Positions 45,806 to 64,000 of a stretch of 64,000 bases of DNA are shown here, in pieces. Position 1 is the first letter of the stretch. Every line of letters begins with the position of its first letter. This stretch comes from an uncultured Gammaproteobacteria bacterium (GTDB taxonomy: Bacteria; Patescibacteriota; Microgenomatia; JAMCZE01): contig CAZNUP010000002.1 of assembly GCA_964576435.1 (NCBI GenBank), positions 247,182 to 311,181 on the forward strand, read 5' to 3'. The position numbers and the translations under genes were made by a program. The notes beneath the pieces are model-generated. The model was not told the origin of the DNA. It ran no database searches and worked only from the letters and a program-made list of their open reading frames with translations.

Positions 45806-45888
45806 GCAGATGTGGCGGAATTGGTATACGCGCACGCCTTAGGAGCGTGTTCCCAAAAGGAATGGAGGTTCAAGTCCTCTCATCTGCA
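45806..45888 (+). tRNA. tRNA-Leu (anticodon TAG), class II with a long variable arm
   Basis: Hand-folded: acceptor GCAGATG/CATCTGC, anticodon stem CACGC/GCGTG with loop CTTAGGA, variable arm TTCC-CAAAA-GGAA, T-loop TTCAAGT; CCA is not encoded. Confidence 0.8.
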
Positions 45889-47411
45889 CTAGATAGGACA
45901 GCATTGTCCTTAAATGTACGAATAGATTGATATAACGGGCTAATCTTCTGGTTCAATGTGCCGTTATAGTTCCAAGCCACTCCGAGAGGGAAGATTGAAC
46001 CAAGGAGCACTTTAAGCTCAAATATATTAGACCTTTTGTAAGTTTCGCCTAAGTCAGCCAACAAGGTTTTCATAAAGGTAGTTACTGCATCAATATTGTA
46101 TTTATCAATAGTAGCATCGTCTTTGGCGATTTGGGCTTGAAGCATTTTGTCTTCGATGAACGTACTTTGCTCCTTGAACACGTCGTCTGAATAAACTCCA
46201 TTCAGATTTTTTTCTACCATTGTTCGGCGTAGCTCTTTGAGTCTGGCAATTTCATTGTCGGCTTCATTCTTCATTTTTTGTAATCTTGAAAGACGCTCGT
46301 GGTAAGTTTTATACAAAAAATTAATGAAAAGATTTAAGCATTCTGGTTTTGGAGTAATTTCTTTTAACAATTGGATAAGTGTATTTTCTAACTCCTCTAC
46401 CTTAATAGAAGTAGAAGTGCAGGGTTTTCCACATCTGTAATAGCCGTACTTAGCATATCTGCCCTTACTCCACCCGCCTGTCAGTCCCATGCCACATTTG
46501 GCACATTTAATGACTCTTCTTAAGGGGAAATCTGGATTAGTGCTATTTCTTTTGGCTAGAGCAATTTTATTGACGTTTCGCCCGTCGAGAATAGCTTGAA
46601 CTTTATAAAATTGTGGTTCGCCTATCATGGCTACATGCTGCCCTTTTACCTCTTCTTTATAGGTCGGTGACGCTAATACACCCATATAAAATTTGTTTCT
46701 GAATATTTCGTCAGTTCTCTGAGGTCTTAACGGCCTCTCTATTTTGCCATGCTTCTCTAGGAGTCCCCAATCATTCATTATTTTAGTCATTTCCCGAAGA
46801 CTTTTTGTCCCAGTAGTCATAAGATCCCAAGCTTTTTTAACTCTGTCCCAACTATTAGTATCCTTTACGGCAAAACCTGCCTCTACTTTATATCCTAATG
46901 GTGCTTGACCCGTTACTAACATCCCTGAAAGGTAACGAGCCTTTAATCCATTTCTAGATCTTTCGCTTCTAATGTCGTTATCTAGCTGAGCAAAGCCAGC
47001 TAATACTGTCTCTACTAACTTTTCTGTGGGACTATTCCCTGTTGGTTCAGTAGCGGAAACAATAGTGACACCATTTTCTGCCAGCTTTTTTCTAATTGCT
47101 AAATAATCAGCCGTTTGTCTGGAAACACGATCAAGCCTGTAAATGAACATCGCCTGAACCCGTCCCTTATTTTTTCGGCAATATTCAAGAAGATTAATAA
47201 GAACTGGTCTGCCTAAAATACTTTTTGCAGACCGGCCTTCTTCTCTAAAAACTTCAGTCACAATGTAACCTCTTTTTTCTGCCTCCTTGCGACAGATTTC
47301 TTCCTGAGTATCGAGTGAAAAGTTGTCTACTTGTTCTTCTGTAGAAACGCGCAGGTAAAGAATCGCCTTTTTGCCGGTATCATATATTACTTCCGATCCG
47401 AATGAGTTCAT
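45870..47411 (-). CDS. large serine recombinase (phage/ICE integrase type)
   Basis: N-terminal resolvase domain AILYLRVSTEEQVDNFSLDTQ...YRLDRVSRQ, recombinase domain and a zinc-ribbon region (CAKCGMGLTGG...C); the 3' end overlaps the tRNA-Leu 3' end by 19 nt. Confidence 0.85.
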   Translation of the reverse strand: MNSFGSEVIYDTGKKAILYLRVSTEEQVDNFSLDTQEEICRKEAEKRGYIVTEVFREEGRSAKSILGRPVLINLLEYCRKNKGRVQAMFIYRLDRVSRQTADYLAIRKKLAENGVTIVSATEPTGNSPTEKLVETVLAGFAQLDNDIRSERSRNGLKARYLSGMLVTGQAPLGYKVEAGFAVKDTNSWDRVKKAWDLMTTGTKSLREMTKIMNDWGLLEKHGKIERPLRPQRTDEIFRNKFYMGVLASPTYKEEVKGQHVAMIGEPQFYKVQAILDGRNVNKIALAKRNSTNPDFPLRRVIKCAKCGMGLTGGWSKGRYAKYGYYRCGKPCTSTSIKVEELENTLIQLLKEITPKPECLNLFINFLYKTYHERLSRLQKMKNEADNEIARLKELRRTMVEKNLNGVYSDDVFKEQSTFIEDKMLQAQIAKDDATIDKYNIDAVTTFMKTLLADLGETYKRSNIFELKVLLGSIFPLGVAWNYNGTLNQKISPLYQSIRTFKDNAVLSSADERT

Positions 47412-47719
47412 ACTCCCCCTTTCTCATGTAGCATTTCTTTTAGGGTTAACCCATCGAATATTGTTCTTTCAAAAGTATCCAACCAGTTTTCGACTAGGAA
47501 TTGAATTTCTGTAACCACATCTCTTAGTTCGTCCGATTCGTAAGAGTCAGCAACACTTCCCAATATTTGCTTTGCCTTTTGAATATTTTTGTCTTCAAAT
47601 TGCTGCTGATCAAATATTGCGTCCAAAGAGAAGACTTCTGAAGTGGTCGTTTGTACGGCTCTGGTTAAGGGCCTTATGACTTGATCCTGTGGAAGTTGAG
47701 TTTGTAATATGTGTTCCAT
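47408..47719 (-). CDS. hypothetical protein, 103 aa, co-oriented with and 4-nt overlapping the recombinase gene
   Basis: ORF track; sits where an excisionase or recombination directionality factor would be expected. Confidence 0.4.
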   Translation of the reverse strand: MEHILQTQLPQDQVIRPLTRAVQTTTSEVFSLDAIFDQQQFEDKNIQKAKQILGSVADSYESDELRDVVTEIQFLVENWLDTFERTIFDGLTLKEMLHEKGGV

Positions 47720-47723
47720 ATTC

Positions 47724-47816
47724 GTGCGTGATACTATCTATATAACGATAGTATATATCGATATAACGATAGTGTCAATAACGTCGTGTGTACTTTGAAT
47801 AATTGATGTCCTATAA
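47724..47816. promoter_or_regulatory. divergent control region with operator-like repeats and a candidate -10 box
   Basis: Direct repeats ataacgatagt at 47743-47753 and 47763-47773; inverted arms actatc/gatagt; TATAAT at 47811-47816. Confidence 0.4.
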
Positions 47817-47897
47817 TTCCCGTGAATGTTCAATTAAGAATTTGGAGCTTATTAATAAGAAAAATAAAGATAAATCTTCTGTCCACAAGATTAATCC

Positions 47898-50522
47898 ATG
47901 GATATTATCAGTCAGTCAATAAGCTTTTTATTATTCCATTATTGGTTTATTGCTCTCACAGTTGTTTTTGTAGGCCTTTTGTCTGGTTTGCGGTGGCTTC
48001 TTGAAATAAGGAGATCATTAACTGATAAATCAGTCCTGCTTGAATTGACACCACCAGCCTTTAGTCAAAAAACTGCCTATACCACCGCTCAGCTTTTTAC
48101 GGTGGTGCATACACTCGGCAGCAAAAGGAAATTTATAGATAGAGTTTTAGGAAGGAAGATTATATTTTCCTTTGAGATCGTGTCTACAGTTGATCAAGGG
48201 ATAAGATTTCTAATAAGAACATCTCCTAGGGAGGTAAATAATGTCAAAAGAAATTTGTTTTCCTACGTTCCACAAGCAAATGTAAGAGAAGCTGAAGAGT
48301 ACTTACCTAAAATTTCAGACCTTTCTCACACGAAAGTGACTGAATATAAGTTAAGTAAACATTTTGCCTTTCCACTCCAAAAACAAAATGTCTTAGATGA
48401 ACACGATCCAGTGGCTTATATCACTGGCATGATGACGAAATTGGCACCTAGTGAACTTATTGCTTTCCAATTGGTGCTAACTCCTACAAAAGTTGATGAG
48501 GTGAATAAATTATCAGCAATGATTCTCCATAACGAGGACGTTTTGGCCTATTTAAACAAGTTTCAGTTCCCTGTTTGGCCCAAACCAGTGACTTTCACTT
48601 TAGATCTTCTGTTTAAAGGAATTGGTTCACTGGGAAGAGAAACCCAATGGATAGCTACAGAGTTGGTTCACTCGCCAAGTTCTTCTCCTGCCTATACTTA
48701 CCAAATGCAACCTCAACAACAAATGCAGCAGGCACATGTTAAACCGGCAAGAGTTTTAAGCAGTTTTGAGCAGCAGACAGTTGAGACGATTCAAGAAAAG
48801 ATTAAACAATCACTTTTTGAAAGTTCGATTCGTGTTCTGACGATTATGAAAGATAAAACTGCCAGTCAGGAAAGAAGTGACGGTTTTACCTCCTCTTTGG
48901 CAGTTTTTGGAGTGCCACAATATCAAACAATTCAGGCAAAGAATAGTTTTCCGAGAATTTTAACTGACAAATTGAGACTATTGGCTTTTGAAAAACGACT
49001 ATTGTCACCCGTCTTAAACACAAGTAATTCTCTTTTATCTGTCTCAGAGGCGGCTGACTTATTCCACTTCCCATTTGCCAAAGTTACTCAAACTGAAAAC
49101 ATAGTTAAGGTCATGTCAAAAGAGTTGCCAGCACCGCTCACTTTGAAACAAGGAAAAGAGTTAAGTGTTGTGTTTGGAAAGAACACTTATGCGGGAACAG
49201 AAACACCGATAGGACTAACGGCTGATGAACGAAAAACCCACATGTACATTATTGGACGAACTGGCAGTGGCAAGACAACTTTGATGTTTAGCATGGCCAA
49301 GCATGATATTGAAGCTGGCGAAGGCATGGCGTTTGTTGATCCTCATGGTGATGTGTCCGAAGACCTGCTCGCTTCAGTTCTAGAAGAGAGAAAAGACGAC
49401 CTTATATATTTCAACCCAGTTGACCTTAAATACCCGATAGGAATTAATTTACTTGAGCTAACTCCTGGTTTAGACGAAGACGAAGCTGAACTTGAAAAAG
49501 AATTGGTAGCTGAAGGAGTAATATCGCTCTTTAGAAAAGTCTTCTCTAAAGAAGAAAATGCCAACGCACATCGGATTGAATATATTTTGAGAAATACCAT
49601 TCATACCGCATTTACCACAGAAGAACCAACAATATTTACTGTTTATGACCTTTTAAATAACCCGCCATTCCAGCAAAAAGTGGTAGCCAAGCTTCAAGAT
49701 GAAAATCTAAAGAACTTTTGGAAATTTGAATTTGGCCGAGCTGGTGACTATCAAGTGGTTAAGATGACAAGTGGAGTCACAGCAAAGATCGGTCGGTTTC
49801 TTTTCTCCCCAACTGCTAAAAGAATACTTGAGCAAAAGAAATCCACCATTAATTTCGATGATGTGCTGGATGGAAAAATATTGATTTGTAATCTTCCACA
49901 AGGAAAATTAGGTGAGGATACCGCGAAACTTCTAGGAACAACTATCTTAACTAAACTGCAGCAAGCGGCACTAAAACGAGCCGATCGGCCACAAAGTGAA
50001 AGGAAACAGTTTCACCTCTACGTTGATGAATTTCAGAACTTTGCCACATTATCTTTCTCAAAGATGTTGTCCGAAGGTCGTAAATATGGCCTAGAGGTTT
50101 GTATTGCGGAACAGTCAACTTCCCAACAACAAGATAGAAGCATTGTTAATGTAATTTTGTCTAACGTAACTACGGTGATTTGCTTCAAGTCTGGGAATCC
50201 AATTGATGAACAGCTGATGCTTTCTCAATTTGCGCCTTATGTGGAAGAGGGCGAAATCCAGAATCTGTCCCGTTACCATTTCTATATAAAGATATCAGCA
50301 ATTGAGTCCGAAGCTCCTTTCTCCGGTGAAACTCTTTTTATTCCAGTCATTAAAGACAAAGAAAAGATGGAAGCACTAATTGAAGCGTCTAGAAAAAATT
50401 GGGCAATTAAATACGAGCATAAATTGAAAGTAGCGAGCAAAGAGAAGATTTCAAGAGGCCCAGAAACGAGTCCTAAAAAAGCTAAAAATACTGCATTACC
50501 CGAAGATGATAATGATGAATAA
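47898..50522 (+). CDS. type IV secretion coupling protein (VirD4/TraG/TraD family) with a long N-terminal membrane-anchored extension
   Basis: N-terminal TM helices; Walker A IIGRTGSGKTT followed by FVDPHGD; Walker B HLYVDEFQNF; RKYGLEVCIAEQSTSQQQD. Confidence 0.75.
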   Translation: MDIISQSISFLLFHYWFIALTVVFVGLLSGLRWLLEIRRSLTDKSVLLELTPPAFSQKTAYTTAQLFTVVHTLGSKRKFIDRVLGRKIIFSFEIVSTVDQGIRFLIRTSPREVNNVKRNLFSYVPQANVREAEEYLPKISDLSHTKVTEYKLSKHFAFPLQKQNVLDEHDPVAYITGMMTKLAPSELIAFQLVLTPTKVDEVNKLSAMILHNEDVLAYLNKFQFPVWPKPVTFTLDLLFKGIGSLGRETQWIATELVHSPSSSPAYTYQMQPQQQMQQAHVKPARVLSSFEQQTVETIQEKIKQSLFESSIRVLTIMKDKTASQERSDGFTSSLAVFGVPQYQTIQAKNSFPRILTDKLRLLAFEKRLLSPVLNTSNSLLSVSEAADLFHFPFAKVTQTENIVKVMSKELPAPLTLKQGKELSVVFGKNTYAGTETPIGLTADERKTHMYIIGRTGSGKTTLMFSMAKHDIEAGEGMAFVDPHGDVSEDLLASVLEERKDDLIYFNPVDLKYPIGINLLELTPGLDEDEAELEKELVAEGVISLFRKVFSKEENANAHRIEYILRNTIHTAFTTEEPTIFTVYDLLNNPPFQQKVVAKLQDENLKNFWKFEFGRAGDYQVVKMTSGVTAKIGRFLFSPTAKRILEQKKSTINFDDVLDGKILICNLPQGKLGEDTAKLLGTTILTKLQQAALKRADRPQSERKQFHLYVDEFQNFATLSFSKMLSEGRKYGLEVCIAEQSTSQQQDRSIVNVILSNVTTVICFKSGNPIDEQLMLSQFAPYVEEGEIQNLSRYHFYIKISAIESEAPFSGETLFIPVIKDKEKMEALIEASRKNWAIKYEHKLKVASKEKISRGPETSPKKAKNTALPEDDNDE

Positions 50523-50552
50523 ACTGTGTTAGCGCGTTAACACAGTTTTTGA
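50522..50552 (+). terminator. 10-bp perfect stem hairpin (aactgtgtta-gcgcgt-taacacagtt) followed by T-rich sequence; terminator and/or oriT-like inverted repeat
   Basis: Read directly from the sequence; lies between the coupling-protein gene and the putative relaxase gene. Confidence 0.45.
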
Positions 50553-50647: not shown

Positions 50648-51412
50648 ATGACTACTCCATCTATAACTAAAGGCCAAATAAAAATAATACATTCACTATA
50701 TAAATTCCGCTTCCTAACTATTAACCATCTTCAAAAACTACTCAACCACAAAGCTCAATATCGAATTAATACCTGGCTACAAGATTTGCAAGACAAAAAA
50801 TATATTTCCGTAATTAAAGACAAAGATCGAACACAACCATTTATATATTGTTTAGACACTAAGTCCGGTCACGTTCTCAAAGACAATGAAAAGTTTGAAA
50901 AAACTTTTCTAAGTAGGTTGTATAAAGAAAAGAGTAAAGAAAGGCCGTTTATTAATCACCACCTTTTTATTGCAACTGTTTATCTCTTTTTCCTGTCAAA
51001 GAAGGAAAAACAATCGGTGCTTAAATTTTTTACTAAACAGAACTTGAAGGGTTATCAATATTTCCCTGATCCTCTTCCCGATGCATATATTTCAGTCAAA
51101 AACGAAAAACAAACCAAGAGATATTTTTTAGATTTGTTTGATCCCAATATTCCACCTTTTGTTCTGAGAAATAGAATCAAATATTATTTGAAGTATTTCC
51201 AAGACGGTCAGTGGCAAGAAAACACGGAAAACAGCCCGTTTCCGTTAATTCTGTTTGTTTGTCCCAATGACCGATTAAAAAAACACATTTTCATGTATAG
51301 CAAATCGTTGCTTCAAAAGTCATTTAATAATGAAGTCAAACTTTTTCTCACCACAAAAGAAATTTTGGAAGCAAATAATCCGGATCTAACGGTTTGGGAG
51401 CAAGCAAAGTAG
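50648..51412 (+). CDS. replication-relaxation (Replic_Relax) family protein, putative relaxase
   Basis: N-terminal wHTH-like ITKGQIKIIHSLYKFRFLTINHLQKLL and an INHHLFIATVYLF His motif; sits beside the coupling protein. Confidence 0.5.
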   Translation: MTTPSITKGQIKIIHSLYKFRFLTINHLQKLLNHKAQYRINTWLQDLQDKKYISVIKDKDRTQPFIYCLDTKSGHVLKDNEKFEKTFLSRLYKEKSKERPFINHHLFIATVYLFFLSKKEKQSVLKFFTKQNLKGYQYFPDPLPDAYISVKNEKQTKRYFLDLFDPNIPPFVLRNRIKYYLKYFQDGQWQENTENSPFPLILFVCPNDRLKKHIFMYSKSLLQKSFNNEVKLFLTTKEILEANNPDLTVWEQAK

Positions 51413-51448: not shown

Positions 51449-51748
51449 TCACTCGTGCAATTTCTTCACTTGTGATAGCGGTTTTGGTTCAAAAGAGGAA
51501 TCGCGCTCAACTCCTAATCCTAATGGCCCTTTGGCGCTACTAAGTTCTGAAAGCGAGAAATATCCAAACTCGCGCTCATGTCCCACTACAAAGCCGTAAA
51601 ACATATCTTTCCCATCAAATTCAATTGCATACCAAGTCCACCTTGAGGTAGGCGTAAAGAATTTGCACACTACTTGTGGATCTTCTATCCATTCGGTTGA
51701 TCCTATGGGAGGCAAGTTATCAGCCACAAATTTTGGTAATAGATTCAT
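51449..51748 (-). CDS. DUF2958 family protein (common on conjugative elements)
   Basis: KFFTPTSRWTWYAIEFDGKDMFYGFVVGHEREFGYFSLSELSSAKGPLGLGVERDSSFEPKPL matches my recollection of the DUF2958 consensus; the ATG after SD GGGGGTG is preferred over the track's GTG at 51757. Confidence 0.55.
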   Translation of the reverse strand: MNLLPKFVADNLPPIGSTEWIEDPQVVCKFFTPTSRWTWYAIEFDGKDMFYGFVVGHEREFGYFSLSELSSAKGPLGLGVERDSSFEPKPLSQVKKLHE

Positions 51749-51781
51749 TAAGTTCACCCCCTTTCTGTAAAAAATTGAATT

Positions 51782-54848: not shown

Positions 54849-54849
54849 C

Positions 54850-56654: not shown

Positions 56655-57240
56655 ATCAAATCAAAAAATGAGTTCCAGAAAACAAATCAACATTAAAGAA
56701 GTGAAAGACGGAATGTTAATTTTGCCTAACAACCAATACCGAGTGGCAATTGAAACTTCCTCAATTAACTTTGAGCTTAAAAGCGAACAGGAGCAGGACG
56801 TTTTGATTGATAGTTTTCAAAATTTCCTCAACTCCCTTCCATGTCAGCTGCAAATCCTTATTCGCGTGAGAGAAATTGACATCGATTCTTACTTGGAGGA
56901 AATATCAAAAGGAAAACAGCTGCAAGAAGAGCTGCGTAACTATTGCGATTTCATTAAAACTGTTGTCTCGGGAAACAAAATCCTTTCCAGACGTTTTTAT
57001 GTCATTATTCCCTATCACAGCGCAAGTGGGAGTAAGGATTTTGAATTTATCAAAGAACAGATTCGTTTAAATTGTGACCTGGTCACTAAAGGCTTGGAAA
57101 AATTGGGAATGAAAGCAAAACAGTTGGACAGTCTTGAAATTCTCGATCTGTTCTACAGTTTCTATAATCCAGGCCAGACTAAGACGCAAGAACTTAAAGG
57201 GCAAACAATTCAGACACTTTTACAAAATAACTATGCCTAA
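56638..57240 (+). CDS. VirB4 N-terminal-domain-like protein (separate 200-aa ORF)
   Basis: Length and position equivalent to the N-domain of ~800-aa VirB4 proteins; the stop overlaps the next start (ATGCCTAA). Confidence 0.4.
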   Translation: MWLLNKSNQKMSSRKQINIKEVKDGMLILPNNQYRVAIETSSINFELKSEQEQDVLIDSFQNFLNSLPCQLQILIRVREIDIDSYLEEISKGKQLQEELRNYCDFIKTVVSGNKILSRRFYVIIPYHSASGSKDFEFIKEQIRLNCDLVTKGLEKLGMKAKQLDSLEILDLFYSFYNPGQTKTQELKGQTIQTLLQNNYA

Positions 57241-59047
57241 CTTAAATCTAAATTTAATCAATCGACTAAAGCAATTTGAGTCCAAGTCGCTAGGGCTTAA
57301 AGGCAAGAACAGCCAAAAAGAGGCAACGAAGAAAGCCATGAGCTTTAATTTTGGTGAACAAGACCAAGTAGATCTTCTATCCTACTCGGGTCTGATGGAA
57401 GAAGCCTCGTATCTTCAAGTGGGTGACAAATTTGTACGCACATTATTTATTTCCGGCTACCCCTATGTTGCTTCCACTGGTTGGCTCAACATGCTCATCA
57501 ATTTTAATCACAACGTGGATATTTCATATCACATTGAACAAGTTGACCCTCAACTTGCCTTGCCAAAATTAAACAGAAAAATAACTGAGCTCGAGTCCAC
57601 AAAGAGATCAATGCTTAAGGACGGAAAAGTAATAGGCTCGGAGATTACAGATCCCTTAGACTCAGCTATTGAACTTAAAAACAAAATTCAACGCGGTCAA
57701 GAGAAGTTGTTTCAAGTCTCGATATATATAAACATTAGTGCTGATAATCTCAGTGATTTAAATAAACTCACCACAACTTTGGAAACAGTAATGTCGACTA
57801 GGTTGTTTTATATTAAAACTGCCCAATTCCAACAATTGGAAGGGCTGCAATCGACTCTTCCCAGAGGAGAGAACCTTCTTAATCAAAGACGAAATTTAGA
57901 CAGTTCCTCGGCCGCATTAACATTTCCTTTCGTGTCTTCTGAACTAGTTCAAGAGTCAGGTATCTTGTATGGGATAAACAAATCAAACAATTCGCTCGTT
58001 ATCATCGACAGATTCAGTTTAAACAATGCCAACAGTATAATTTTCGCTCAGTCTGGATCCGGAAAAAGCTACACAGCAAAGGTTGAAATACTCCGGCAAC
58101 TTATGCAGGGAACTAGAGTCATTGTGATTGATCCAGAGAGGGAATATCAACAGTTGGCTAAATCAGTCAACGGTAGTTACATCCAACTGTCTGCCAATTC
58201 AAAAGAAAAAATTAATCCCTTCGACTTTTCACTTACAAACTACCATCGGGAAAATATCCTGGCAGAAAATATCCAAAACCTAACTGAAATAATTTCTCTT
58301 ATGGTTGGTTCCCTTTCCGATGAAGAACGAGCAATAGTAGATAAAGCCTTAATTCAAACATACAAAAAGTTTGGTTTTTCAATCAACAGTAAAAGCACCG
58401 AGCTTAAAGGAAGAAAGTTCCCACTCCTCAAAGATTTCTATAAAGAATTGAAAAACCTACACCAAACTGATTTATGTAATCGGCTAGATAAATTCGTCAA
58501 CGGCTCCCTTGCGTCAGTATTCGATTCAGAAACAAATATTCAGCTTGATAACCGCTTAGTAGTTTTTGACATCAAGGACCTTGGAGAATCACTGAGACAA
58601 ATAATGATGCTTGTTGTAGCTAACTTTGTGAATTCCGAAGTTAAATCGAATCCACAAAAGAGAATTTTGGTGATTGATGAGGGTTGGCTACTTCTGCAAT
58701 ACGAGGAAAGTGCCAGATTCATTTCTGGACTAGTCAGGCGAGCCAGAAAATATTACTTGGGAGTAACAATCATCTCTCAGCAAGCTAATGACTTCTTAAA
58801 TCAAGAATATGGTCGCGCCATTGCTTCGCAAAGCTCACTTAGAATTTTAATGAAACAAGACACCACAACAATTCAAAAGGTAGCTCAAGAATTTCATCTG
58901 AGTGAATACGAACAACATTTTCTGTTAACTTGTGACCGAGGCGAAGCACTGATTATTGCTGACCAAAATCATGTTGCTCTCAAAGTTGTCGCCTCAGAAA
59001 AAGAGCACCCGCTTCTGACAACCGATCCTAAGGAGATATATCTCTAA
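57233..59047 (+). CDS. VirB4/TrbE-family T4SS ATPase (C-terminal ATPase part)
   Basis: Walker A AQSGSGKSYTAK; Walker B RILVIDEGWLLL; the track starts at 57134, but the ATG at 57233 (MPNLNL) right after the upstream stop is preferred. Confidence 0.75.
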   Translation: MPNLNLNLINRLKQFESKSLGLKGKNSQKEATKKAMSFNFGEQDQVDLLSYSGLMEEASYLQVGDKFVRTLFISGYPYVASTGWLNMLINFNHNVDISYHIEQVDPQLALPKLNRKITELESTKRSMLKDGKVIGSEITDPLDSAIELKNKIQRGQEKLFQVSIYINISADNLSDLNKLTTTLETVMSTRLFYIKTAQFQQLEGLQSTLPRGENLLNQRRNLDSSSAALTFPFVSSELVQESGILYGINKSNNSLVIIDRFSLNNANSIIFAQSGSGKSYTAKVEILRQLMQGTRVIVIDPEREYQQLAKSVNGSYIQLSANSKEKINPFDFSLTNYHRENILAENIQNLTEIISLMVGSLSDEERAIVDKALIQTYKKFGFSINSKSTELKGRKFPLLKDFYKELKNLHQTDLCNRLDKFVNGSLASVFDSETNIQLDNRLVVFDIKDLGESLRQIMMLVVANFVNSEVKSNPQKRILVIDEGWLLLQYEESARFISGLVRRARKYYLGVTIISQQANDFLNQEYGRAIASQSSLRILMKQDTTTIQKVAQEFHLSEYEQHFLLTCDRGEALIIADQNHVALKVVASEKEHPLLTTDPKEIYL

Positions 59048-59668
59048 ATGAGTCTCATAACTCCAAGTACAATTCTCACCGTCTGGTCATTTAGAAAAGA
59101 ATTAATCTACGTAGCCATAGCATTTCTAATTGTTCTCTCACTCCCAATTGTGGCCGTTATTATTCTCACAAATACCGGATTAAATATTGTCTCCGACAAA
59201 TTAGCCACTGTTAATGTCCAAACTCAGGCTATTCAAATTAGAAACCCAGCGGATGGAGAAATAATCAAAGAAATTCATGCCCAAATTGTCTGGCCAGTCA
59301 AAGGAGTGATTACCCTAAACTTTGGCGAACCTGATTTGCCGTTTCAACCCCTCCATACAGGAATTGATATTGCGAACCCTGAAGGGAAAATTGGTGATCC
59401 AATAACTCCTTTTATGAATGGAAAGGTCATCTACGCTGGGGAAACTGCTATTGGCTATGGCAAACACATCATTATTGATCACGGAGATAACATCAGCTCA
59501 GTTTATGGACACTTAGATAAGGTTAATGTGTTTACAAGTCAACAGGTAACCACCAATGATGTAATTGGTCTAGAAGGACAAACAGGTTGGGCTACAGGAC
59601 CACATTTACATTTTGAAATAAGAGTTTTTGGAATCCCGGTGAATCCGAGAACATTTTTATTTAATTAA
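59048..59668 (+). CDS. M23 family peptidoglycan endopeptidase (conjugation-associated cell-wall hydrolase)
   Basis: HTGIDIA...GYGKHIIIDHGDNISSVYGHL...GPHLHFE (the HxxxD and HxH zinc ligands of M23) plus an N-terminal TM anchor. Confidence 0.85.
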   Translation: MSLITPSTILTVWSFRKELIYVAIAFLIVLSLPIVAVIILTNTGLNIVSDKLATVNVQTQAIQIRNPADGEIIKEIHAQIVWPVKGVITLNFGEPDLPFQPLHTGIDIANPEGKIGDPITPFMNGKVIYAGETAIGYGKHIIIDHGDNISSVYGHLDKVNVFTSQQVTTNDVIGLEGQTGWATGPHLHFEIRVFGIPVNPRTFLFN

Positions 59669-59670
59669 TC

Positions 59671-60081
59671 TTGCAATTCCTATTAGGCTTTTCTACAATC
59701 TGTAGTATGGAAACTAAGCAACTGAGTGAACTTGAGCAGGAAGTGATGAACATCGTTTGGGAACTGAAAAACTGTTCGGTACGAGATGTGCTTGAAGAAT
59801 TAACTAAGTCTAAAAAACTAGCATATACCACCGTAGCAACCATCCTTCAGAGACTTAATGATAAAGGAGTCGTCGTTCGTAAAGGATCTGGGCAAACTTT
59901 TTCCTACTCTCCTAAAATTTCTAGAGAGGTTTACAGCAAAAATGTGGCGCAAACTTTTATCCAGAAGTTTTTCAGGTCCTTTGGTGACACAGCTGTAGCA
60001 TCATTCGCAGAAACCCTAGATAAACTCCCTACGGAGAAAAAGAAACATTTATTAAAATTATTATCTGATCATGGCAATTAA
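59671..60081 (+). CDS. BlaI/MecI/CopY family transcriptional repressor
   Basis: LSELEQEVMNIVWELKNCSVRDVLEEL...YTTVATILQRLNDKGVVVRK winged-helix signature; no C-terminal Cys cluster. Confidence 0.8.
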   Translation: MQFLLGFSTICSMETKQLSELEQEVMNIVWELKNCSVRDVLEELTKSKKLAYTTVATILQRLNDKGVVVRKGSGQTFSYSPKISREVYSKNVAQTFIQKFFRSFGDTAVASFAETLDKLPTEKKKHLLKLLSDHGN

Positions 60082-61021
60082 AAATTTACTTTTTCCTTTC
60101 AGTTTGATTGGTGCTTTCGGTTTGACTACGCTTTTAATTTTTCAGAAATTTCTCCAGCTTTCCATTGGACATACCGTCTATTATTGCCAAAATGTAATTA
60201 AATCCTTATCGCTTCAGTTTCCCCAACCTCTCGGTATTGTTCTTATTTCACTTCTTTTATTAACGATTGTTTTTCCATTACTTAAGTTTTTGTTTAATCT
60301 TCACAAACTTTCCCGACTTAAAAATAATCTAACTCCTAGCCTGGAAATGAGCAAAAAATTATTTCGCCTTGTGACAGCTCTAGATTTACAAGGAAAAGTA
60401 ATTCAGGTTAAAAGTAGAAAGTTGTTTGCCTATTGTGTGGGGATGAAAAGTCCAAAAATATATGTTTCGTCAGCGCTTATATCATCAGTAGACTCTAGGG
60501 AATTAGAAGCAATATTACTTCACGAGAAAAGTCATTTAGATAATCATGACCCATTTGTTTTAGTATTGATGTCCATTGTCCACTCTTTATTTCCCTATTT
60601 GCCAATACTCAGTGATTTTGTTCGAAACTTTCGTATCGAAAGAGAAATTCAGGCCGATCAAGCAGCCGTTTATCAGCAAGGTGAGATGAAACCACTTCTT
60701 TCAGCAATGAGGAAACTTCTTTTAATTGAAGACTCTGACAGGTTTGCATTTTCCTTAGGAATGGGAGAGCTGGACACTCTTGAAGTTCGAATTAATATGC
60801 TACTTAACAAAAAATTGATCCACAAGAAGTTCCATGCTCTGAATATTATTGCAACTACTGTAACGATTCTGGTTGTTGGGTTTATGGCAATTGCTCCTGT
60901 TCATGCAATAGAAAATCATGAGAACGGAAAAGATGTTATGACAGTCTGGTGTGACGGAAATCAAACCATTAATTCAAGTCAGCCATCAGAAAATTCCTCC
61001 CATCCATATAGCACTAAATAA
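60071..61021 (+). CDS. M56 (BlaR1-like) membrane metalloprotease/signal transducer without a penicillin-binding sensor domain
   Basis: HEKSHLDNHD (HExxH) in a polytopic membrane protein; overlaps the BlaI-family gene by 11 nt. Confidence 0.75.
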   Translation: MAIKNLLFPFSLIGAFGLTTLLIFQKFLQLSIGHTVYYCQNVIKSLSLQFPQPLGIVLISLLLLTIVFPLLKFLFNLHKLSRLKNNLTPSLEMSKKLFRLVTALDLQGKVIQVKSRKLFAYCVGMKSPKIYVSSALISSVDSRELEAILLHEKSHLDNHDPFVLVLMSIVHSLFPYLPILSDFVRNFRIEREIQADQAAVYQQGEMKPLLSAMRKLLLIEDSDRFAFSLGMGELDTLEVRINMLLNKKLIHKKFHALNIIATTVTILVVGFMAIAPVHAIENHENGKDVMTVWCDGNQTINSSQPSENSSHPYSTK

Positions 61022-61072: not shown

Positions 61073-61804
61073 ATGAAGTTTGATAACCCTATTATTTCAA
61101 TCCTGGTGGCAGTAGTAATTTTTGTTCTTGGCGCCGGGATTGGTGGAATGTATACTAAGATTCAATACCTTGAAGGGAAGGGAGCAGCAGGATCCGCAGC
61201 CCTTGCTGTTGCCCCTTTGGGAGGTCAGCCTGCTCCAAATGCTGCTCCTCCCGCCCCAACAAAAGTTGATATCAAGGTGACAAGCGATGATCCATATTTG
61301 GGAAATGCCAATGCAAAACTAACTGTAGTTGAGTTTGGTGACTTTCAGTGTCCGTTCTGTGGAAAATTCCACTCTGAAGTTTTAACACAGCTTAAGAAGG
61401 ACTATATCGATACTGGCAAGGTTAAGTTCGTTTTTAAAAATCTTGCCTTTTTAGGTAAAGAGTCAACTGACACTGCAAATGCGGCAATGTGTGCTAAGGA
61501 ACAAAATAAATATTGGGAATACCACGACAAGATTTACACTAGCCAAAACGGGGAAAACCAAGGTACTTTTTCCATTCCTAATCTAAAGAAATTTGCGGTG
61601 GACCTTGGATTAGATCCAACCCAATTTGATAGTTGCTTAGATAGTCAAAAATATAATGCCCAAGTGACTGCTGATAATACTGAGGCCAATAAGAATGGTT
61701 TCACCAGCACTCCAAGCACTGCAGTAGGAGACACTCCGGTAATTGGTGCCCAACCTTACAATGCTTTTAAGACAATCATTGACCAAAAATTATCGGCGCT
61801 CTAG
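61073..61804 (+). CDS. DsbA-like thiol:disulfide oxidoreductase, membrane-anchored
   Basis: FGDFQCPFCGKFH thioredoxin-fold CxxC motif and an N-terminal TM helix. Confidence 0.75.
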   Translation: MKFDNPIISILVAVVIFVLGAGIGGMYTKIQYLEGKGAAGSAALAVAPLGGQPAPNAAPPAPTKVDIKVTSDDPYLGNANAKLTVVEFGDFQCPFCGKFHSEVLTQLKKDYIDTGKVKFVFKNLAFLGKESTDTANAAMCAKEQNKYWEYHDKIYTSQNGENQGTFSIPNLKKFAVDLGLDPTQFDSCLDSQKYNAQVTADNTEANKNGFTSTPSTAVGDTPVIGAQPYNAFKTIIDQKLSAL

Positions 61805-61814
61805 TCATTTTTCT

Positions 61815-62312
61815 ATGAAAAAGGTTTTAGTTCCAGCGCTGATAATTACGATCCTCTACTTCTTGGCAACGACATATTTTATGAATTCACGTCTAGCCCT
61901 CGACACATTAACTGGAAACTACCCAGTAAGTTATAAACTCGATCTCACACTGGCACTAATTCTAGGAATGTGGTCGGCCATGGGGGCATTTGGACTAATG
62001 ATCCTTTTAATAACAGCAGGACTTACAGGACTTAACCTATCAATACTGGGTCAACGTATTGGGGAACTTTCAAAAACAGGGAACATGCATTTTGTTGTGG
62101 GTGGCAGCTCTGTTCTTGGACTCGCAACTAGCGGTTGTGCTGCCTGTGGACTGCCGATTCTGGCATTATTTGGAATTTCGGGAAGCTTGTTATATTTACC
62201 CTTTCGAGGATTGGAACTGTCGTTCCTGTCGATCGTGTTACTTACTATTTCCCTAGTTGCTCTTGTTAAAACAAGGACAGCAACTGAGTGCAGAATTAAT
62301 TCAAATGTCTGA
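61815..62312 (+). CDS. small polytopic membrane protein with an intramembrane CAAC (CxxC) motif; candidate redox partner (VKOR/DsbB-like role) of the DsbA-like protein
   Basis: MKKVLVPALIITILYFLATT...LATSGCAACGLPILALFG; the track starts upstream at 61743 in the same frame, the ATG at 61815 is preferred. Confidence 0.4.
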   Translation: MKKVLVPALIITILYFLATTYFMNSRLALDTLTGNYPVSYKLDLTLALILGMWSAMGAFGLMILLITAGLTGLNLSILGQRIGELSKTGNMHFVVGGSSVLGLATSGCAACGLPILALFGISGSLLYLPFRGLELSFLSIVLLTISLVALVKTRTATECRINSNV

Positions 62313-62682
62313 CAAAACTAAAAATTTTCTTTTGTCTGGTCTATTAATCGGCGCAATTGTTTTAATAACATCCGTGTTTTTTAAAGTGATTGCTCCCTCC
62401 GGACAAGTCATGGCCAAAAGTAAAACGTTTAATCTTGTGCTTCAAAATGAACAATATATTCCCAACAAAATTCAAGTTAATTTAAATGATAATGTGACTC
62501 TTAAAATTGACAATAAAGATAATATTCTTCACGGGTTACACATTACCCAATTTAATATTTCAGAAGATATTCCCCCTCTTTCCCAAAAGACAGTTCAATT
62601 TGTTGCAACTACTAATGGGCCAATGACAGCGGGGTGCGCTAATGATCAACATAAAGAAAAGTTAGATATTGAAGTTATATGA
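62305..62682 (+). CDS. membrane-anchored cupredoxin-like protein
   Basis: HGLH...C...H spacing after an N-terminal TM anchor; the start ATG overlaps the upstream stop (ATGTCTGA). Confidence 0.4.
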   Translation: MSDKTKNFLLSGLLIGAIVLITSVFFKVIAPSGQVMAKSKTFNLVLQNEQYIPNKIQVNLNDNVTLKIDNKDNILHGLHITQFNISEDIPPLSQKTVQFVATTNGPMTAGCANDQHKEKLDIEVI

Positions 62683-63128
62683 CGTTAACAACGGAAACGA
62701 AAATAATCGGAGCACTAATTCTAATGACAGTCGTCATTGTTATTGGTGGAGTGTTTCTTTTTTCTAAACAAAGTAACAAAACCGTCCTAAAGGATCAGGT
62801 TGTGGCAGAGAACGGTCTACACTGGCATCCAAAATTAAGCATTTTTATAAAAGGAAAAAAACAGGAAATTCCTGATAATATCGGATTGGGTGCAGTTCAT
62901 GGAAAAATTCACACTCACACTGAAGACGCAAAAGATGGTGTGATTCACATGGAAATGTCTGGGCTAGTTCTAAAAGAAGATACCAAACTTGTAAAGTTTT
63001 TCCTAGCTTGGGGAAAGGATTTTAATTTTGGGGGCCAGCCTAAAATGACTGTTAATGGCAAAGAAAATATGGATCTTAATAAATACTTAATGAAAAATGG
63101 TGATAATATAGAAATTCGATATGAATAA
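62679..63128 (+). CDS. membrane-anchored His-rich putative metal-binding protein
   Basis: HWHP, HGKIHTHTED and VIHMEM motifs; 4-nt overlap with the upstream gene. Confidence 0.4.
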   Translation: MTLTTETKIIGALILMTVVIVIGGVFLFSKQSNKTVLKDQVVAENGLHWHPKLSIFIKGKKQEIPDNIGLGAVHGKIHTHTEDAKDGVIHMEMSGLVLKEDTKLVKFFLAWGKDFNFGGQPKMTVNGKENMDLNKYLMKNGDNIEIRYE

Positions 63129-64000
63129 TTGGAAAAGATTTTTAACTAGCAGAAATGTTATTTTAGCAGCCTTAGCAATTATTGGAGTCCTTCTGCTGTT
63201 TCAGTTTAAGACGCAACAAACAGGACTTACAAATTCCCCAGCGCAGCTTTCAACAACAGGTGAAAATCAGTCAGCCCTCGAAGCGATGGAGGCAATTCCA
63301 GAAAGCGGAGTCCCACAAGCAACCGAGAAACAAGGACTACAAGAACTGAAATTCAGTCTTGAAAACGGAGTCAAAGTTTTTAAACTTACTGCAGAGCCAA
63401 TTCGTTGGCCTATTCTTAAAGACACTACCGTCACTGCTTGGGCATATAACGGAATGGTCCCGGGGCCATTAATTCGGGTTAGTGATGGTGACAAAGTCAA
63501 GTTACTTGTAAAGAATAATCTTCCAGAAGCAACAACGATTCATTGGCATGGCATTCTTGTTCCAAACAACATGGATGGGATTCCAGACGAAACGCAAGAA
63601 CCTATTAAGCCAGGCGAAACGTTTACTTATGAATTTACTGCCAAACCGGCGGGGACATTCTGGTATCATTCCCACTTTAATAGCGATAAGCAAATCTCAG
63701 TTGGTCTCTCAGGAGCATTTATTATTGAGCCTCCTGGTGGTTTAGCATCAAAACCAGATATCGATAAAGTTCTAATGCTTAATGAATGGCGAGTGATTGG
63801 TGGCCAAACATATGCAGCGATGCCAGCAACGGGAATGGACGGAAACTTCTTTACAATCAATGGAAAAGCATTTCCGCAGACCGAAACAATAGAGGCAAAG
63901 GTGGGGCAAAAGGTGCGCCTTCGTTTTATTGGCAGTGGGCAAATGATTCATCCGATGCATCTACATGGGTTCCCATTTAAAGTTGTGGCAACTGATGGAA
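63121..64000 (+). CDS. multicopper oxidase (CueO/CopA-like), 3' end beyond the window
   Basis: Hand translation MNNWKRFLTSRN...TIHWHGILVPN...FWYHSHF...HPMHLHGFPF (type 2/3 copper His motifs); absent from the ORF track because no stop lies in the window. Confidence 0.8.
   Translation, partial: MNNWKRFLTSRNVILAALAIIGVLLLFQFKTQQTGLTNSPAQLSTTGENQSALEAMEAIPESGVPQATEKQGLQELKFSLENGVKVFKLTAEPIRWPILKDTTVTAWAYNGMVPGPLIRVSDGDKVKLLVKNNLPEATTIHWHGILVPNNMDGIPDETQEPIKPGETFTYEFTAKPAGTFWYHSHFNSDKQISVGLSGAFIIEPPGGLASKPDIDKVLMLNEWRVIGGQTYAAMPATGMDGNFFTINGKAFPQTETIEAKVGQKVRLRFIGSGQMIHPMHLHGFPFKVVATDG

What the first reader, a model, noticed from the sequence alone, without database searches (positions are those of the whole stretch)
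45806..64000. Integrative conjugative element with a Gram-positive-type T4SS inserted at tRNA-Leu(TAG) in an apparently CPR-like genome
A large serine recombinase (45870-47411) ends inside the 3' end of tRNA-Leu, the classic signature of tRNA-targeted integration. Downstream lie a VirD4-type coupling protein, a Replic_Relax-like putative relaxase, a DUF2958 protein, a VirB2-like pilin, a VirB6-like protein, a PrgI/VirB3-like protein, VirB4 and an M23 cell-wall hydrolase. That is a full single-membrane (Gram-positive-style) conjugation set. The surrounding chromosome looks like a reduced Patescibacteria/Saccharibacteria genome (hppA pump, minimal aaRS forms, no fab genes); to my knowledge conjugative elements in such genomes are poorly documented. 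The element extends beyond the window end.
Basis: partly seen in the sequence, partly recalled or inferred. Interest (0 to 1): 0.75.

Follow-up and report, generated by a model that had tools for sequence, protein, structure and literature searches.

The report
Conjugative element at tRNA-Leu in Patescibacteria
A block of at least 34 kb that starts at a tRNA-Leu gene in an ultra-small (Patescibacteria, Microgenomates-group) bacterium has the complete gene set of a self-transmissible DNA element carrying copper-resistance genes, and it belongs to a large, apparently undescribed family of tRNA-targeting mobile elements in a phylum whose secretion machines were thought to have lost their DNA-transfer role.

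Summary
tRNA-Leu(TAG) lies at 45806-45889. A 513-aa large serine recombinase (LSR) ends 20 nt inside its 3' end. A VirD4-type coupling protein (T4CP), a Replic_Relax (=MOBC) relaxase, DUF2958, a VirB2-like pilin, a VirB6-like protein, PrgI, a TrsD-like protein, VirB4 (passes the CD1110/MPF-FATA cutoff) and an M23 hydrolase follow.

The ICE reading is largely supported. Recovered contig sequence extends the block to at least 34 kb of copper/heavy-metal cargo. A sister copy in another genome uses a different LSR (28% identity) at a different tRNA-Leu. Its 26 block proteins average about 78% identity, against about 52% for syntenic chromosomal proteins, and there the block is 38-42% GC in a 47% GC chromosome.

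The tRNA|LSR<->T4CP-relaxase-DUF2958 core recurs in more than 50 loci at 15 tRNA species. A conserved palindrome (candidate oriT) sits between T4CP and relaxase. Only some copies carry a T4SS.

Corrections: the host is Microgenomates-group, not Saccharibacteria. T4SSs in this phylum are well documented; linked relaxase and integrase are not. The proposed attR repeat test does not suit a serine recombinase. No right end, empty site or excision was found.

The parts
45806..45889 (+). tRNA-Leu(TAG), the chromosomal side of the left junction (attL). The junction with element DNA is inferred to lie at its 3' terminus (...TCTGCAC|TAGATAGGACAGC). No CCA is encoded.
   Evidence: ARAGORN, Rfam 58.5 bits, junction comparison across the family.
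45870..47411 (-). Large serine recombinase (513 aa), the integration/excision enzyme. Its last 6 codons and stop codon are read from the tRNA 3' end.
   Evidence: Pfam Resolvase 108 bits, Recombinase and Zn_ribbon_recom, all above cutoff. RVST catalytic motif. More than 1,000 homologues. A tRNA abuts the gene in 22 of the 32 related loci where a recombinase was detected.
47408..47719 (-). Small acidic ORF (103 aa) whose stop overlaps the recombinase start by 4 nt. Conserved partner of this recombinase type. Candidate accessory or directionality factor (inferred).
   Evidence: Homologues at 31-57% identity directly upstream of the recombinase in relatives. No family hit.
47729..47777 (.). Palindrome with 22-nt arms in the divergent recombinase/T4CP intergenic region. 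Candidate operator.
   Evidence: the repeat finder, 82% complementary, 5-nt spacer. Function inferred.
47898..50522 (+). VirD4-type coupling protein (T4CP, 874 aa).
   Evidence: Pfam TrwB_AAD_bind and TraG-D_C; NCBIfam conju_CD1115, TraD and CedD similarities below cutoff. Walker A GRTGSGKT. 91% identical to the sister copy.
50521..50548 (.). Palindrome AAACTGTGTTAGCG|CGTTAACACAGTTT. Candidate oriT or relaxase binding site.
   Evidence: Related palindromes (consensus TGTACCTACGCGTAGGTACA) lie between T4CP and relaxase in 28 of 37 loci at >=8/12 complementary positions. At >=10/12 the count is 12 of 37, against 4 of 685 control windows. The intergenic region is 94% identical to the sister copy, against 82% for the genes.
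50648..51412 (+). Replic_Relax / MOBC-type putative relaxase (254 aa): winged helix plus a restriction-endonuclease-like domain.
   Evidence: PF13814, 36.4 bits against a cutoff of 25.3. PF13814 equals MobC per PMC5357655. AF2 model pLDDT 94. Foldseek top hits FokI and PaqCI. A homologue follows the T4CP in 39 of 39 loci.
51449..51757 (-). DUF2958 protein (102 aa), a conserved member of the core module. Function unknown.
   Evidence: Pfam 49 bits. Present downstream of the relaxase in most relatives.
51938..54409 (+). 823-aa cytoplasmic protein with a Zn ribbon, occupying a variable slot. Probably accessory or defence cargo (inferred).
   Evidence: No Pfam, NCBIfam, PADLOC or PDB hit. The slot holds AbiEii in the sister copy, and HD-domain or HTH+PIN genes in L046 and L068.
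54510..54848 (+). VirB2-like T4SS pilin (112 aa; signal peptide plus 2 TM).
   Evidence: Pfam T4SS_pilin 46 bits, TrbC 39 bits. Hydropathy.
54826..56151 (+). Polytopic membrane protein (433-441 aa, about 9 TM-like segments) with an N-terminal pilin-like domain. VirB6-like channel component (inferred).
   Evidence: Pfam T4SS_pilin at the N-terminus; NCBIfam Mbov_0395 pilin-like below cutoff. Hydropathy. 88% identical to the sister copy.
56148..56654 (+). PrgI/VirB3-like protein (168 aa, 2 TM).
   Evidence: Pfam PrgI 30 bits against a cutoff of 27.
56638..57240 (+). TrsD-like protein (200 aa), equivalent to a detached VirB4 N-terminal domain.
   Evidence: NCBIfam matches to the N-terminal regions of VirB4_plasma and conju_CD1110 and to TrsD, all below cutoff. 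Precomputed Pfam TraC-like.
57233..59047 (+). VirB4 ATPase (604 aa), MPF-FATA type.
   Evidence: NCBIfam conju_CD1110, 374 bits against a cutoff of 325. Walker A SGSGKS and Walker B ILVIDE. Best plasmid matches are Firmicutes/Actinobacteria CD1110-family VirB4 at 30-37% identity.
59048..59668 (+). Membrane-anchored M23 peptidase, a cell-wall hydrolase for channel assembly (VirB1 analogue; inferred role).
   Evidence: Pfam Peptidase_M23 97.5 bits. Follows VirB4 in all T4SS-linked relatives.
59671..61021 (+). BlaI/CopY-family repressor plus a BlaR1/M56 sensor-protease pair. This is where the cargo starts.
   Evidence: Pfam Penicillinase_R 102 bits; Peptidase_M56 and M48. Syntenic in the sister copy.
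61073..64000 (+). Metal and redox cargo: DsbA, a 165-aa membrane protein, cupredoxin, a 149-aa protein, and the start of a multicopper oxidase (63121 onward). Beyond the window it continues with YtkA, DUF305, M23, HMA-DsbD, CopZ-like, CopA, DsbD, a two-component system, ICMT and a second P-type ATPase, to at least 80,206.
   Evidence: Pfam. Gene tables of L001 and L018, which are 100% identical to the window where they overlap.

Best explanation
The region from the 3' end of tRNA-Leu(TAG) (45889) to beyond the window end is an integrative and conjugative element (ICE) of at least 34 kb in the chromosome of a Microgenomates-group Patescibacterium.

Inferred mechanism:
1. The large serine recombinase, possibly helped by the small co-transcribed ORF, recombines an element site with the extreme 3' end of a tRNA gene. 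The tRNA stays intact and no long repeat is made.
2. After excision, the winged-helix/nuclease-fold MOBC-type relaxase acts on an oriT. The candidate is the conserved palindrome between the T4CP and relaxase genes.
3. The VirD4-type coupling protein hands the DNA to a monoderm-type channel built from VirB4, TrsD, PrgI/VirB3, a VirB6-like protein and a VirB2-like pilin, with an M23 hydrolase opening the wall.
4. The recombinase re-integrates the element in the recipient.

The cargo is a copper/heavy-metal resistance and envelope-redox island with its own regulators.

Shown: gene identities, the recurrence of the tRNA|recombinase<->T4CP-relaxase architecture, horizontal sharing of the whole block, and the conserved palindrome.
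Inferred: excision, nicking site, transfer, the role of the small ORF, and current activity.
For: - Gene content: all ICE signature proteins are present and intact.
- Family recurrence: of loci with enough sequence, 19 of 21 have an LSR upstream of the T4CP and 39 of 39 have the relaxase downstream. 22 of the 32 loci with an LSR detected have an abutting tRNA, and 14 tRNA species are used besides this Leu-TAG.
- Junctions: within recombinase subgroups, different tRNAs are fused to the same element-side sequence exactly at the tRNA terminus.
- Sister copy (GCA_964641255.1): same T4CP->T4SS->Cu->two-component block, more than 32 kb syntenic, but a different LSR (28% identity) at tRNA-Leu(GAG).
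- Horizontal sharing: 26 block proteins average about 78% identity (T4CP 91, VirB6-like 88, response regulator 96), against about 52% for 12 syntenic chromosomal proteins (GyrA/GyrB 80).
- Composition: the sister block is 38-42% GC in a 46.8% GC chromosomal region.
- Same full layout with different cargo at tRNA-Gly(GCC) in L073, at tRNA-Gly(TCC) in L031 and at tRNA-Leu(CAG) in L046; L068 has the T4CP-to-M23 part but no upstream sequence.
- Relaxase fold: winged helix plus restriction-endonuclease-like domain, as published for MOBC.
- Conserved palindrome between T4CP and relaxase.
Against: - No right boundary: no tRNA-fragment repeat and no inverted half-site above the shuffle null in 34 kb here, nor in 12 relatives.
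- No empty site in a close relative. The nearest flank homologue (L006) has the tRNA in inverted orientation and its contig ends 930 bp away.
- No GC difference between element and chromosome in the window itself.
- No excision or circular-form evidence.
- Published genetics in Saccharibacteria (as cited in PMC12102498) tie this T4SS type to epibiotic growth, so the channel may have a non-conjugative role.
- The candidate catalytic acidic residues of the relaxase are not strictly invariant in a 42-sequence alignment.
- The chromosome-versus-element identity contrast rests on one 14-kb chromosomal region.
Confidence: 0.72

Rival explanations
1. Only the roughly 6-kb core (recombinase, small ORF, T4CP, relaxase, DUF2958) is mobile. 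It would be an integrative mobilizable element that happens to sit next to the genome's resident chromosomal T4SS and a chromosomal copper island, and it borrows that T4SS in trans.
For: In the T4CP-seeded metagenome set only 3 of 16 loci with at least 8 kb of downstream sequence have a T4SS there. The others carry efflux, reverse-transcriptase or other genes. Two core modules without a T4SS lie on one 753-kb contig. The 2025 survey found only 148 of 5,713 T4CPs near virB4 (PMC12102498). Streptococcal IME_Class_8 has the same compact trio without a T4SS.
Against: The T4SS follows DUF2958 in the same order and orientation, 0.3-2.8 kb away, in six independent loci: five at five different tRNAs (window, sister, L031, L046, L073), plus L068, whose upstream sequence is missing. 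T4SS and cargo proteins are as elevated in identity as the core between the window and the sister copy (VirB6-like 88, M23 87, response regulator 96, against a chromosomal mean of about 52). In the sister genome they share the foreign low GC.
Confidence: 0.12
2. It is a domesticated or fossil element. It arrived as an ICE but is now fixed. Its T4SS serves the episymbiotic lifestyle (import or export of macromolecules with the host bacterium) and does not transfer the element.
For: T4SS genes of this clade are near-universal in the phylum and essential for epibiotic growth in the one genetic study cited in PMC12102498. Element GC equals chromosome GC in the window. No att sites or excision evidence were found.
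Against: Every integration and DNA-processing gene is intact, with catalytic motifs. The T4CP-relaxase intergenic region with its palindrome is more conserved (94%) than the genes. The integration module and target tRNA have been exchanged between close copies. Cargo differs between copies. All of this indicates recent mobility.
Confidence: 0.12
3. It is not mobile at all: a vertically inherited, conserved chromosomal neighbourhood, with a recombinase that merely happens to lie next to a tRNA.
For: No boundary or repeat was found. Composition is uniform in the window.
Against: The same module sits at 15 different tRNA species with unrelated flanks: trigger factor, dxr, flavodoxin/ddl, tRNA clusters. 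Block identity far exceeds chromosomal identity. There is a GC contrast in the sister genome.
Confidence: 0.03

Closest known systems
Patescibacteria-clade T4SS (Quinonero-Coronel et al. 2025, Microb Genom, PMC12102498)
   Same: Same component set and order: VirB2-like pilin, VirB6-like protein, PrgI/VirB3, TrsD, VirB4, a nearby peptidase. The closest VirB4 relatives are all Patescibacteria at 80-88% identity. The clade is nested in MPF-FATA.
   Different: That survey reports these systems as chromosomal, mostly without a relaxase (109 in 3,035 genomes, 15 near virB4) and with the T4CP rarely nearby. It concludes the system was repurposed away from conjugation, and it does not mention integrases or tRNA sites. 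Here T4CP, a MOBC-like relaxase, a serine integrase and a tRNA junction are all contiguous with the T4SS.
Streptococcal IME_Class_8 (Coluzzi et al. 2017, PMC5357655)
   Same: A compact module of serine integrase, VirD4-type coupling protein and PF13814/MobC relaxase.
   Different: Those are small mobilizable elements of Firmicutes without a T4SS, and only two were found. The relaxase here has no tblastn match in 72,556 plasmids. Sequence relationship of the recombinases was not tested. Whether the streptococcal elements target tRNA genes was not checked.
MPF-FATA ICEs and plasmids of Firmicutes (CTn2/CD1110 type; pAD1 TraX as the MOBC prototype)
   Same: VirB4 passes the CD1110-family cutoff. 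Best plasmid hits are Firmicutes/Actinobacteria CD1110 VirB4 at 30-37% identity. No outer-membrane components. PrgI-like and TrsD-like proteins are present. MOBC-class relaxase with a restriction-endonuclease-like fold.
   Different: It has a VirB2-like pilin, which is absent from Gram-positive systems according to PMC12102498. VirB4 is split into TrsD-like and VirB4 parts. The hydrolase is M23 instead of CHAP/SLT. No adhesin was found. The host is an ultra-small episymbiont lineage.
Large-serine-recombinase elements (SCCmec CcrAB, Anabaena XisF, phage integrases such as Bxb1)
   Same: Resolvase, Recombinase and Zn-ribbon architecture; weak NCBIfam similarity to CcrB and XisF; absence of long direct repeats at the junctions.
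   Different: All NCBIfam scores are far below the equivalog cutoffs. The target is the 3' terminus of tRNA genes, with many different tRNAs used across the family. From my own knowledge, and not verified exhaustively, that target is typical of tyrosine integrases and unusual for serine integrases.

Membership tests
Integrative and conjugative element (ICE) | Site-specific recombinase at one end | tested here: met
   LSR with three Pfam domains above cutoff and the RVST motif.
Integrative and conjugative element (ICE) | Relaxase, coupling protein and VirB4-based mating-pair-formation genes within one contiguous block | tested here: met
   All lie within 45870-59668.
Integrative and conjugative element (ICE) | Both boundaries (attL and attR) defined, or an empty site in a relative | tested here: inconclusive
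   attL is inferred at the tRNA 3' terminus. No attR signal in 34 kb. No usable empty site.
Integrative and conjugative element (ICE) | Evidence of horizontal mobility of the whole block | tested here: met
   Sister copy at another tRNA with another LSR. Block about 78% against chromosome about 52% identity. GC 38-42% against 46.8%.
Integrative and conjugative element (ICE) | Excision and conjugative transfer demonstrated | not testable with these tools
   Needs read-level or experimental data.
MPF-FATA type IV secretion system | VirB4 of the FATA clade | tested here: met
   NCBIfam conju_CD1110, 374 bits against a cutoff of 325. Plasmid hits are CD1110-family VirB4. No phylogeny was built.
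MPF-FATA type IV secretion system | PrgI/VirB3-like and VirB6/PrgH-like membrane components; no outer-membrane core | tested here: inconclusive
   PrgI passes (30 bits against 27). The VirB6 assignment rests on topology and position only. No VirB7/9/10 homologues were seen.
MOBC relaxase (PF13814 Replic_Relax) | Profile match above the curated cutoff | tested here: met
   36.4 bits against 25.3. PF13814 equals MobC per CONJscan in PMC5357655. MOBscan itself was not run.
MOBC relaxase (PF13814 Replic_Relax) | Restriction-endonuclease-like catalytic fold | tested here: met
   AF2 model pLDDT 94. Foldseek top hits FokI (E 3e-4, probability 0.99) and PaqCI. TM-scores are low (0.3-0.37) because of domain arrangement.
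MOBC relaxase (PF13814 Replic_Relax) | Conserved catalytic acidic residues; oriT nicking | tested here: inconclusive
   The D of LPDAY and the acidic residue of FL(D/E) are common but not invariant in 42 sequences. Nicking cannot be tested here.
Large serine recombinase | N-terminal resolvase catalytic domain with nucleophile Ser, recombinase domain and zinc ribbon | tested here: met
Patescibacteria-clade 'repurposed' T4SS (PMC12102498) | No associated relaxase or T4CP; fixed chromosomal location (often near dnaA) | tested here: not met
   Relaxase and T4CP are adjacent, and the location is next to a tRNA and an integrase. gyrB lies 40 kb away in the window. No dnaA was seen among the 10 large chromosomal ORFs scanned, but the chromosomal part was not fully annotated.

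The most novel reading that the evidence does not exclude
The recombinase-T4CP-MOBC-like-relaxase-DUF2958 module may be the 'missing' DNA-processing machinery of the patescibacterial T4SS. The thousands of 'orphan' coupling proteins reported in this phylum would then mostly belong to tRNA-terminus-targeting integrative elements. Some would be self-transmissible, like this one, and most would be mobilizable through a resident T4SS. Their divergent relaxases would have escaped standard MOB profiles. Conjugation would then be a common, active function of T4SSs in these ultra-small episymbionts, not an abandoned one. It would also define a large family of serine integrases that use tRNA 3' ends as landing sites.
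Probability: 0.4. Interest if true: 0.85.

Novelty: new variant of a known kind. Interest (0 to 1): 0.7.

Why it matters
Patescibacteria (CPR) make up a large share of bacterial diversity, and little is known about how they exchange genes. Their near-universal T4SS has no established substrate, and the current published view is that it lost its conjugative role because relaxases seemed to be missing.

This locus and its family supply a contiguous integrase, relaxase, coupling protein, candidate oriT and T4SS. That makes 'do CPR bacteria conjugate?' directly testable through excision PCR or long reads, relaxase-oriT binding, and recombinase att assays.

It also shows how metal-resistance and defence genes move between these reduced genomes. 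It points to possible genetic tools for a phylum that is hard to manipulate: tRNA-targeting serine integrases and a native transfer system.

Tried and rejected
Rejected as a criterion because serine recombinases leave no long repeat.
- Inverted half-site of the element-side junction sequence: best matches are no better than shuffled controls.
- att-like similarity or tRNAs at the strand-switch point about 33 kb into the sister element: nothing found. The GC there stays low, so it is probably not the true end.
- Empty-site search with the left-flank trigger factor in one genome per species: only two short contigs. One has the tRNA inverted and ends 930 bp beyond it, so it is uninformative.
- The source contig (318,946 bp, NCBI) could not be fetched. 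Only Logan contigs ending at the equivalent of 80,206 were available.
- The 823-aa ORF: no hit in Pfam, NCBIfam, PADLOC or PDB sequences.
- Saccharibacteria affiliation: rejected on GyrB and VirB4 relatives.
- The 'Gammaproteobacteria' labels on the two related GTDB contigs were treated as submitter mislabels, because GyrB relatives are consistently Patescibacteria.

Full report
OBSERVATION

ARAGORN and Rfam place tRNA-Leu(TAG) at 45806-45889 on the + strand. A 513-aa ORF on the - strand (45870-47411) matches Resolvase (108 bits), Recombinase and Zn_ribbon_recom, all above Pfam cutoffs. It carries the YLRVSTEEQ catalytic-serine motif. Its last six codons and stop codon lie in the final 20 nt of the tRNA.

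Downstream profile hits:
- VirD4-type coupling protein, 47898-50522: TrwB_AAD_bind, TraG-D_C, Walker A GRTGSGKT.
- Replic_Relax protein, 50648-51412: 36.4 bits against a cutoff of 25.3.
- DUF2958, 51449-51757, minus strand.
- An 823-aa protein with no family hit.
- VirB2-like pilin, 54510-54848.
- A polytopic protein with about 9 TM-like segments and an N-terminal pilin-like domain, 54826-56151.
- PrgI, 56148-56654.
- A TrsD-like 'detached VirB4 N-terminus', 56638-57240.
- VirB4, 57233-59047: NCBIfam conju_CD1110, 374 bits against a cutoff of 325; Walker A and B present.
- A membrane-anchored M23 peptidase, 59048-59668.

'VirB6-like' rests only on topology and position.

EXTENT AND CARGO

A Logan contig that is 100% identical to window 51178-64000 continues to the equivalent of coordinate 80,206. 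After M23 the genes stay co-oriented:
- a BlaI/CopY-family repressor and a BlaR1/M56 protein
- DsbA, cupredoxin, multicopper oxidase, YtkA, DUF305, another M23
- HMA-DsbD, a CopZ-like HMA protein, a CopA P-type ATPase, DUF5676, DUF1573, DsbD
- an OmpR/HisKA two-component pair, ICMT, and a second heavy-metal P-type ATPase

The block is therefore at least 34.3 kb from the tRNA, and its cargo is a copper/heavy-metal and envelope-redox island.

HOST

The left 45 kb is ordinary chromosome: H+-PPase, GyrB, a type IV pilus cluster, RecG, PBP1, PheT, ThrRS. Named GyrB relatives are 'Patescibacteria group', 'Candidatus Microgenomates' and 'Gottesmanbacteria' at 74-83% identity. VirB4 relatives at 80-88% are Daviesbacteria, Woykebacteria, Shapirobacteria, Gottesmanbacteria and other Microgenomates-group names. 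The genome is Patescibacteria, but Microgenomates-group and not Saccharibacteria.

WHAT IS ALREADY KNOWN

Quinonero-Coronel et al. 2025 (PMC12102498) report the following:
- VirB4 occurs in 2,417 of 3,035 Patescibacteria genomes, in a monophyletic clade nested in MPF-FATA. TrsD, PrgI/VirB3, VirB6 and VirB2-like pilins lie nearby.
- Only 109 relaxases were found (58 MOBC), 15 of them near virB4 and 39 near a T4CP.
- Of 5,713 T4CP homologues, only 148 lie near virB4.

The words integrase, recombinase and tRNA do not occur in that paper. Coluzzi et al. 2017 (PMC5357655) show that PF13814 equals the MobC relaxase superfamily. They also describe streptococcal IME_Class_8, a compact trio of serine integrase, VirD4 and MobC. 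So a T4SS in a CPR genome is not new. A T4SS that is contiguous with a coupling protein, a relaxase and a tRNA-associated integrase is rare in the published record.

FAMILY-LEVEL EVIDENCE FOR tRNA-TARGETED INTEGRATION

Contexts of recombinase homologues, 48 metagenome loci seeded with the T4CP and two VirB4-seeded contexts were analysed together:
- 39 of 39 loci with at least 1.1 kb downstream of the T4CP have a homologue of the relaxase directly after it.
- 19 of 21 loci with at least 2.6 kb upstream have a divergently oriented large serine recombinase.
- 22 of the 32 loci in which a recombinase was detected have a + strand tRNA gene abutting or overlapping the recombinase 3' end. Several of the remaining ten are cut by contig ends.
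- Fourteen tRNA species are used, besides this Leu-TAG: Arg-CCG/TCG/TCT, Phe-GAA, Lys-TTT, Gly-TCC/CCC/GCC, Leu-TAA/CAG/GAG/TAG, Gln-TTG and Glu-TTC.
- Two copies lie on one 753,569-bp contig.

Within recombinase subgroups, different tRNAs are joined to the same element-side sequence exactly at the tRNA terminus. Examples are ...GCACCA|AGTGAGTCGCTTGGGTTCTC for Arg-TCT, Leu-TAA and Phe-GAA, and ...ACCA|TAGAGAACTTTTT for Leu-TAG and Leu-GAG. This places the crossover at or just after the discriminator/CCA end. That is what a serine recombinase with a 2-bp crossover would produce: an intact tRNA and no long direct repeat. It explains why no copy of the tRNA 3' end exists in 34 kb here or in 20 relatives. 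An inverted half-site was also not detectable above shuffled controls, so the right end remains undefined.

IS THE T4SS PART OF THE MOBILE UNIT?

Among T4CP-seeded loci with at least 8 kb downstream, only 3 of 16 have a T4SS. The others carry efflux, reverse-transcriptase or other genes. The conserved core is therefore recombinase, small ORF, T4CP, relaxase and DUF2958, and many members look like mobilizable elements.

In six independent loci the T4SS follows DUF2958 in identical order and orientation, at most a few genes away:
- window: tRNA-Leu-TAG
- sister copy: tRNA-Leu-GAG
- L031: tRNA-Gly-TCC
- L046: tRNA-Leu-CAG
- L073: tRNA-Gly-GCC
- L068: upstream sequence missing

L073 was chosen only for its name and contig length.

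The sister copy is the decisive comparison. It lies in GCA_964641255.1, on a 950,062-bp contig. It is syntenic from the T4CP through the T4SS, the copper genes, the two-component system and the second ATPase, over more than 32 kb. It begins with a different large serine recombinase (28% identity) at tRNA-Leu(GAG), at the end of a tRNA cluster.

Between the two genomes, 26 block proteins average about 78% identity. Examples: T4CP 91, relaxase 85, VirB6-like 88, M23 87, DsbA 88, DsbD 94, response regulator 96, kinase 92. Twelve syntenic chromosomal proteins around gyrB average about 52%: GyrA/GyrB 80, PilB 67, PilT 69, PilC 61, the others 31-55. In the sister genome the block is 38-42% GC against 46.8% for that chromosomal region. 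In the window both are about 38%.

The whole block, T4SS and cargo included, is thus much more recently shared than the hosts. It has exchanged its integration module and target. This favours a true ICE over 'a small mobilizable element parked next to a resident T4SS'.

DNA-PROCESSING MODULE

A palindrome sits between the T4CP and relaxase genes: AAACTGTGTTAGCG|CGTTAACACAGTTT at 50521-50548 in the window. The family consensus is TGTACCTACGCGTAGGTACA. It is found in 28 of 37 loci at >=8/12 complementary positions. At >=10/12 the count is 12 of 37, against 4 of 685 control windows. The surrounding intergenic region is 94% identical between the window and the sister copy, although the flanking genes are 82% identical. 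It is the best oriT candidate. This is inference.

WHAT REMAINS UNSHOWN

No attR, no empty site and no excised form were found, and activity is unknown. The only related left-flank contig (L006) carries tRNA-Leu(TAG) next to the same genes, but inverted and close to the contig end. The chromosome-versus-block contrast uses one chromosomal region. The T4SS may also, or instead, serve the episymbiotic lifestyle, as genetics in Saccharibacteria (cited in PMC12102498) suggest.

VERDICT

The ICE interpretation is the best-supported reading (about 0.72). The host assignment, the state of the literature and the proposed attR test all need correcting. Literature searches found no description of integrative or conjugative elements with serine integrases at tRNA ends in this phylum. 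Mechanistically it is an MPF-FATA/MOBC/serine-integrase ICE, a known kind. Its variants are the host phylum, the tRNA-terminus targeting by a serine recombinase, the pilin-bearing split-VirB4 T4SS, and membership of a large family that bears on the open question of what patescibacterial T4SSs do.

Noticed in passing
window 42745-42817 and 45806-45889; L006 930-1014; L007 2083-2155: tRNA-Val(GAC) and tRNA-Leu(TAG) are each inverted relative to the same neighbouring protein genes (262-aa, 140-aa, trigger factor, DUF5660) when the window is compared with two related genomes at 68-72% identity. The protein genes keep their order and orientation. No explanation yet; recombinase-mediated inversion is one idea.
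   Followed up: partly
window 1385-3388; L070 11945-12481: The window has a membrane H+-pyrophosphatase between gyrB and gyrA. The sister genome has a soluble inorganic pyrophosphatase (178 aa) at the same position.
   Followed up: no
L016 1-7100: In the sister genome a second, unrelated large serine recombinase (541 aa) reads through tRNA-Gly(GCC) on the other side of the same tRNA cluster. It faces a block with M78 peptidase, HTH, DUF3800 and a DNA methylase, which is probably another integrated element.
   Followed up: partly
window 51938-54409: An 823-aa cytoplasmic protein with a CxxC...CxxC zinc ribbon (about aa 447-464) has no hit in Pfam, NCBIfam, PADLOC or PDB sequences. It occupies a variable slot that holds AbiEii, an HD-domain protein or an HTH+PIN pair in other copies, which suggests a defence or addiction function.
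   Followed up: partly
window 51782-51805 and 47729-47777: There is a perfect 12+12 palindrome TCGAAAGCATGC|GCATGCTTTCGA between DUF2958 and the 823-aa ORF. There is also a palindrome with 22-nt arms, containing two 18-nt direct repeats, in the divergent recombinase/T4CP promoter region. Both are likely regulatory sites.
   Followed up: no
L039 and L062 (contig Ga0172379_10000002, 753,569 bp): Two copies of the recombinase-T4CP-relaxase module lie about 60 kb apart on one contig, at tRNA-Arg(TCT) and tRNA-Gln(TTG). Neither has a T4SS within 10 kb. This fits the roughly two T4CPs per genome reported for the phylum.
   Followed up: partly
L073 12455-21818: The related element in 'Microgenomates group bacterium Gr01-1014_5' carries a defence cluster as cargo directly after the T4SS: SMODS-like, trypsin-like protease, PDDEXK nuclease, Type ISP restriction-modification and an SNF2 helicase.
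   Followed up: no
window 47954 and 51178; extended coordinate 80206: Logan contigs from four samples of one study break at the start of the T4CP gene, inside the relaxase gene and inside the second P-type ATPase gene. This may reflect several related copies of these genes in the community or the genome.
   Followed up: no
window 5889-13800: A complete type IV pilus gene cluster lies next to gyrB and is syntenic in the sister genome: PilB with an MshEN domain, a PilT-like ATPase, PilC, several pseudopilins and a prepilin peptidase.
   Followed up: no
window 59671-60081: The 'BlaI' repressor belongs to the BlaI/MecI/CopY family. Given the copper genes downstream, it may be a CopY-type copper-responsive repressor and not a beta-lactam regulator. 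This is from my own knowledge and was not tested.
   Followed up: no
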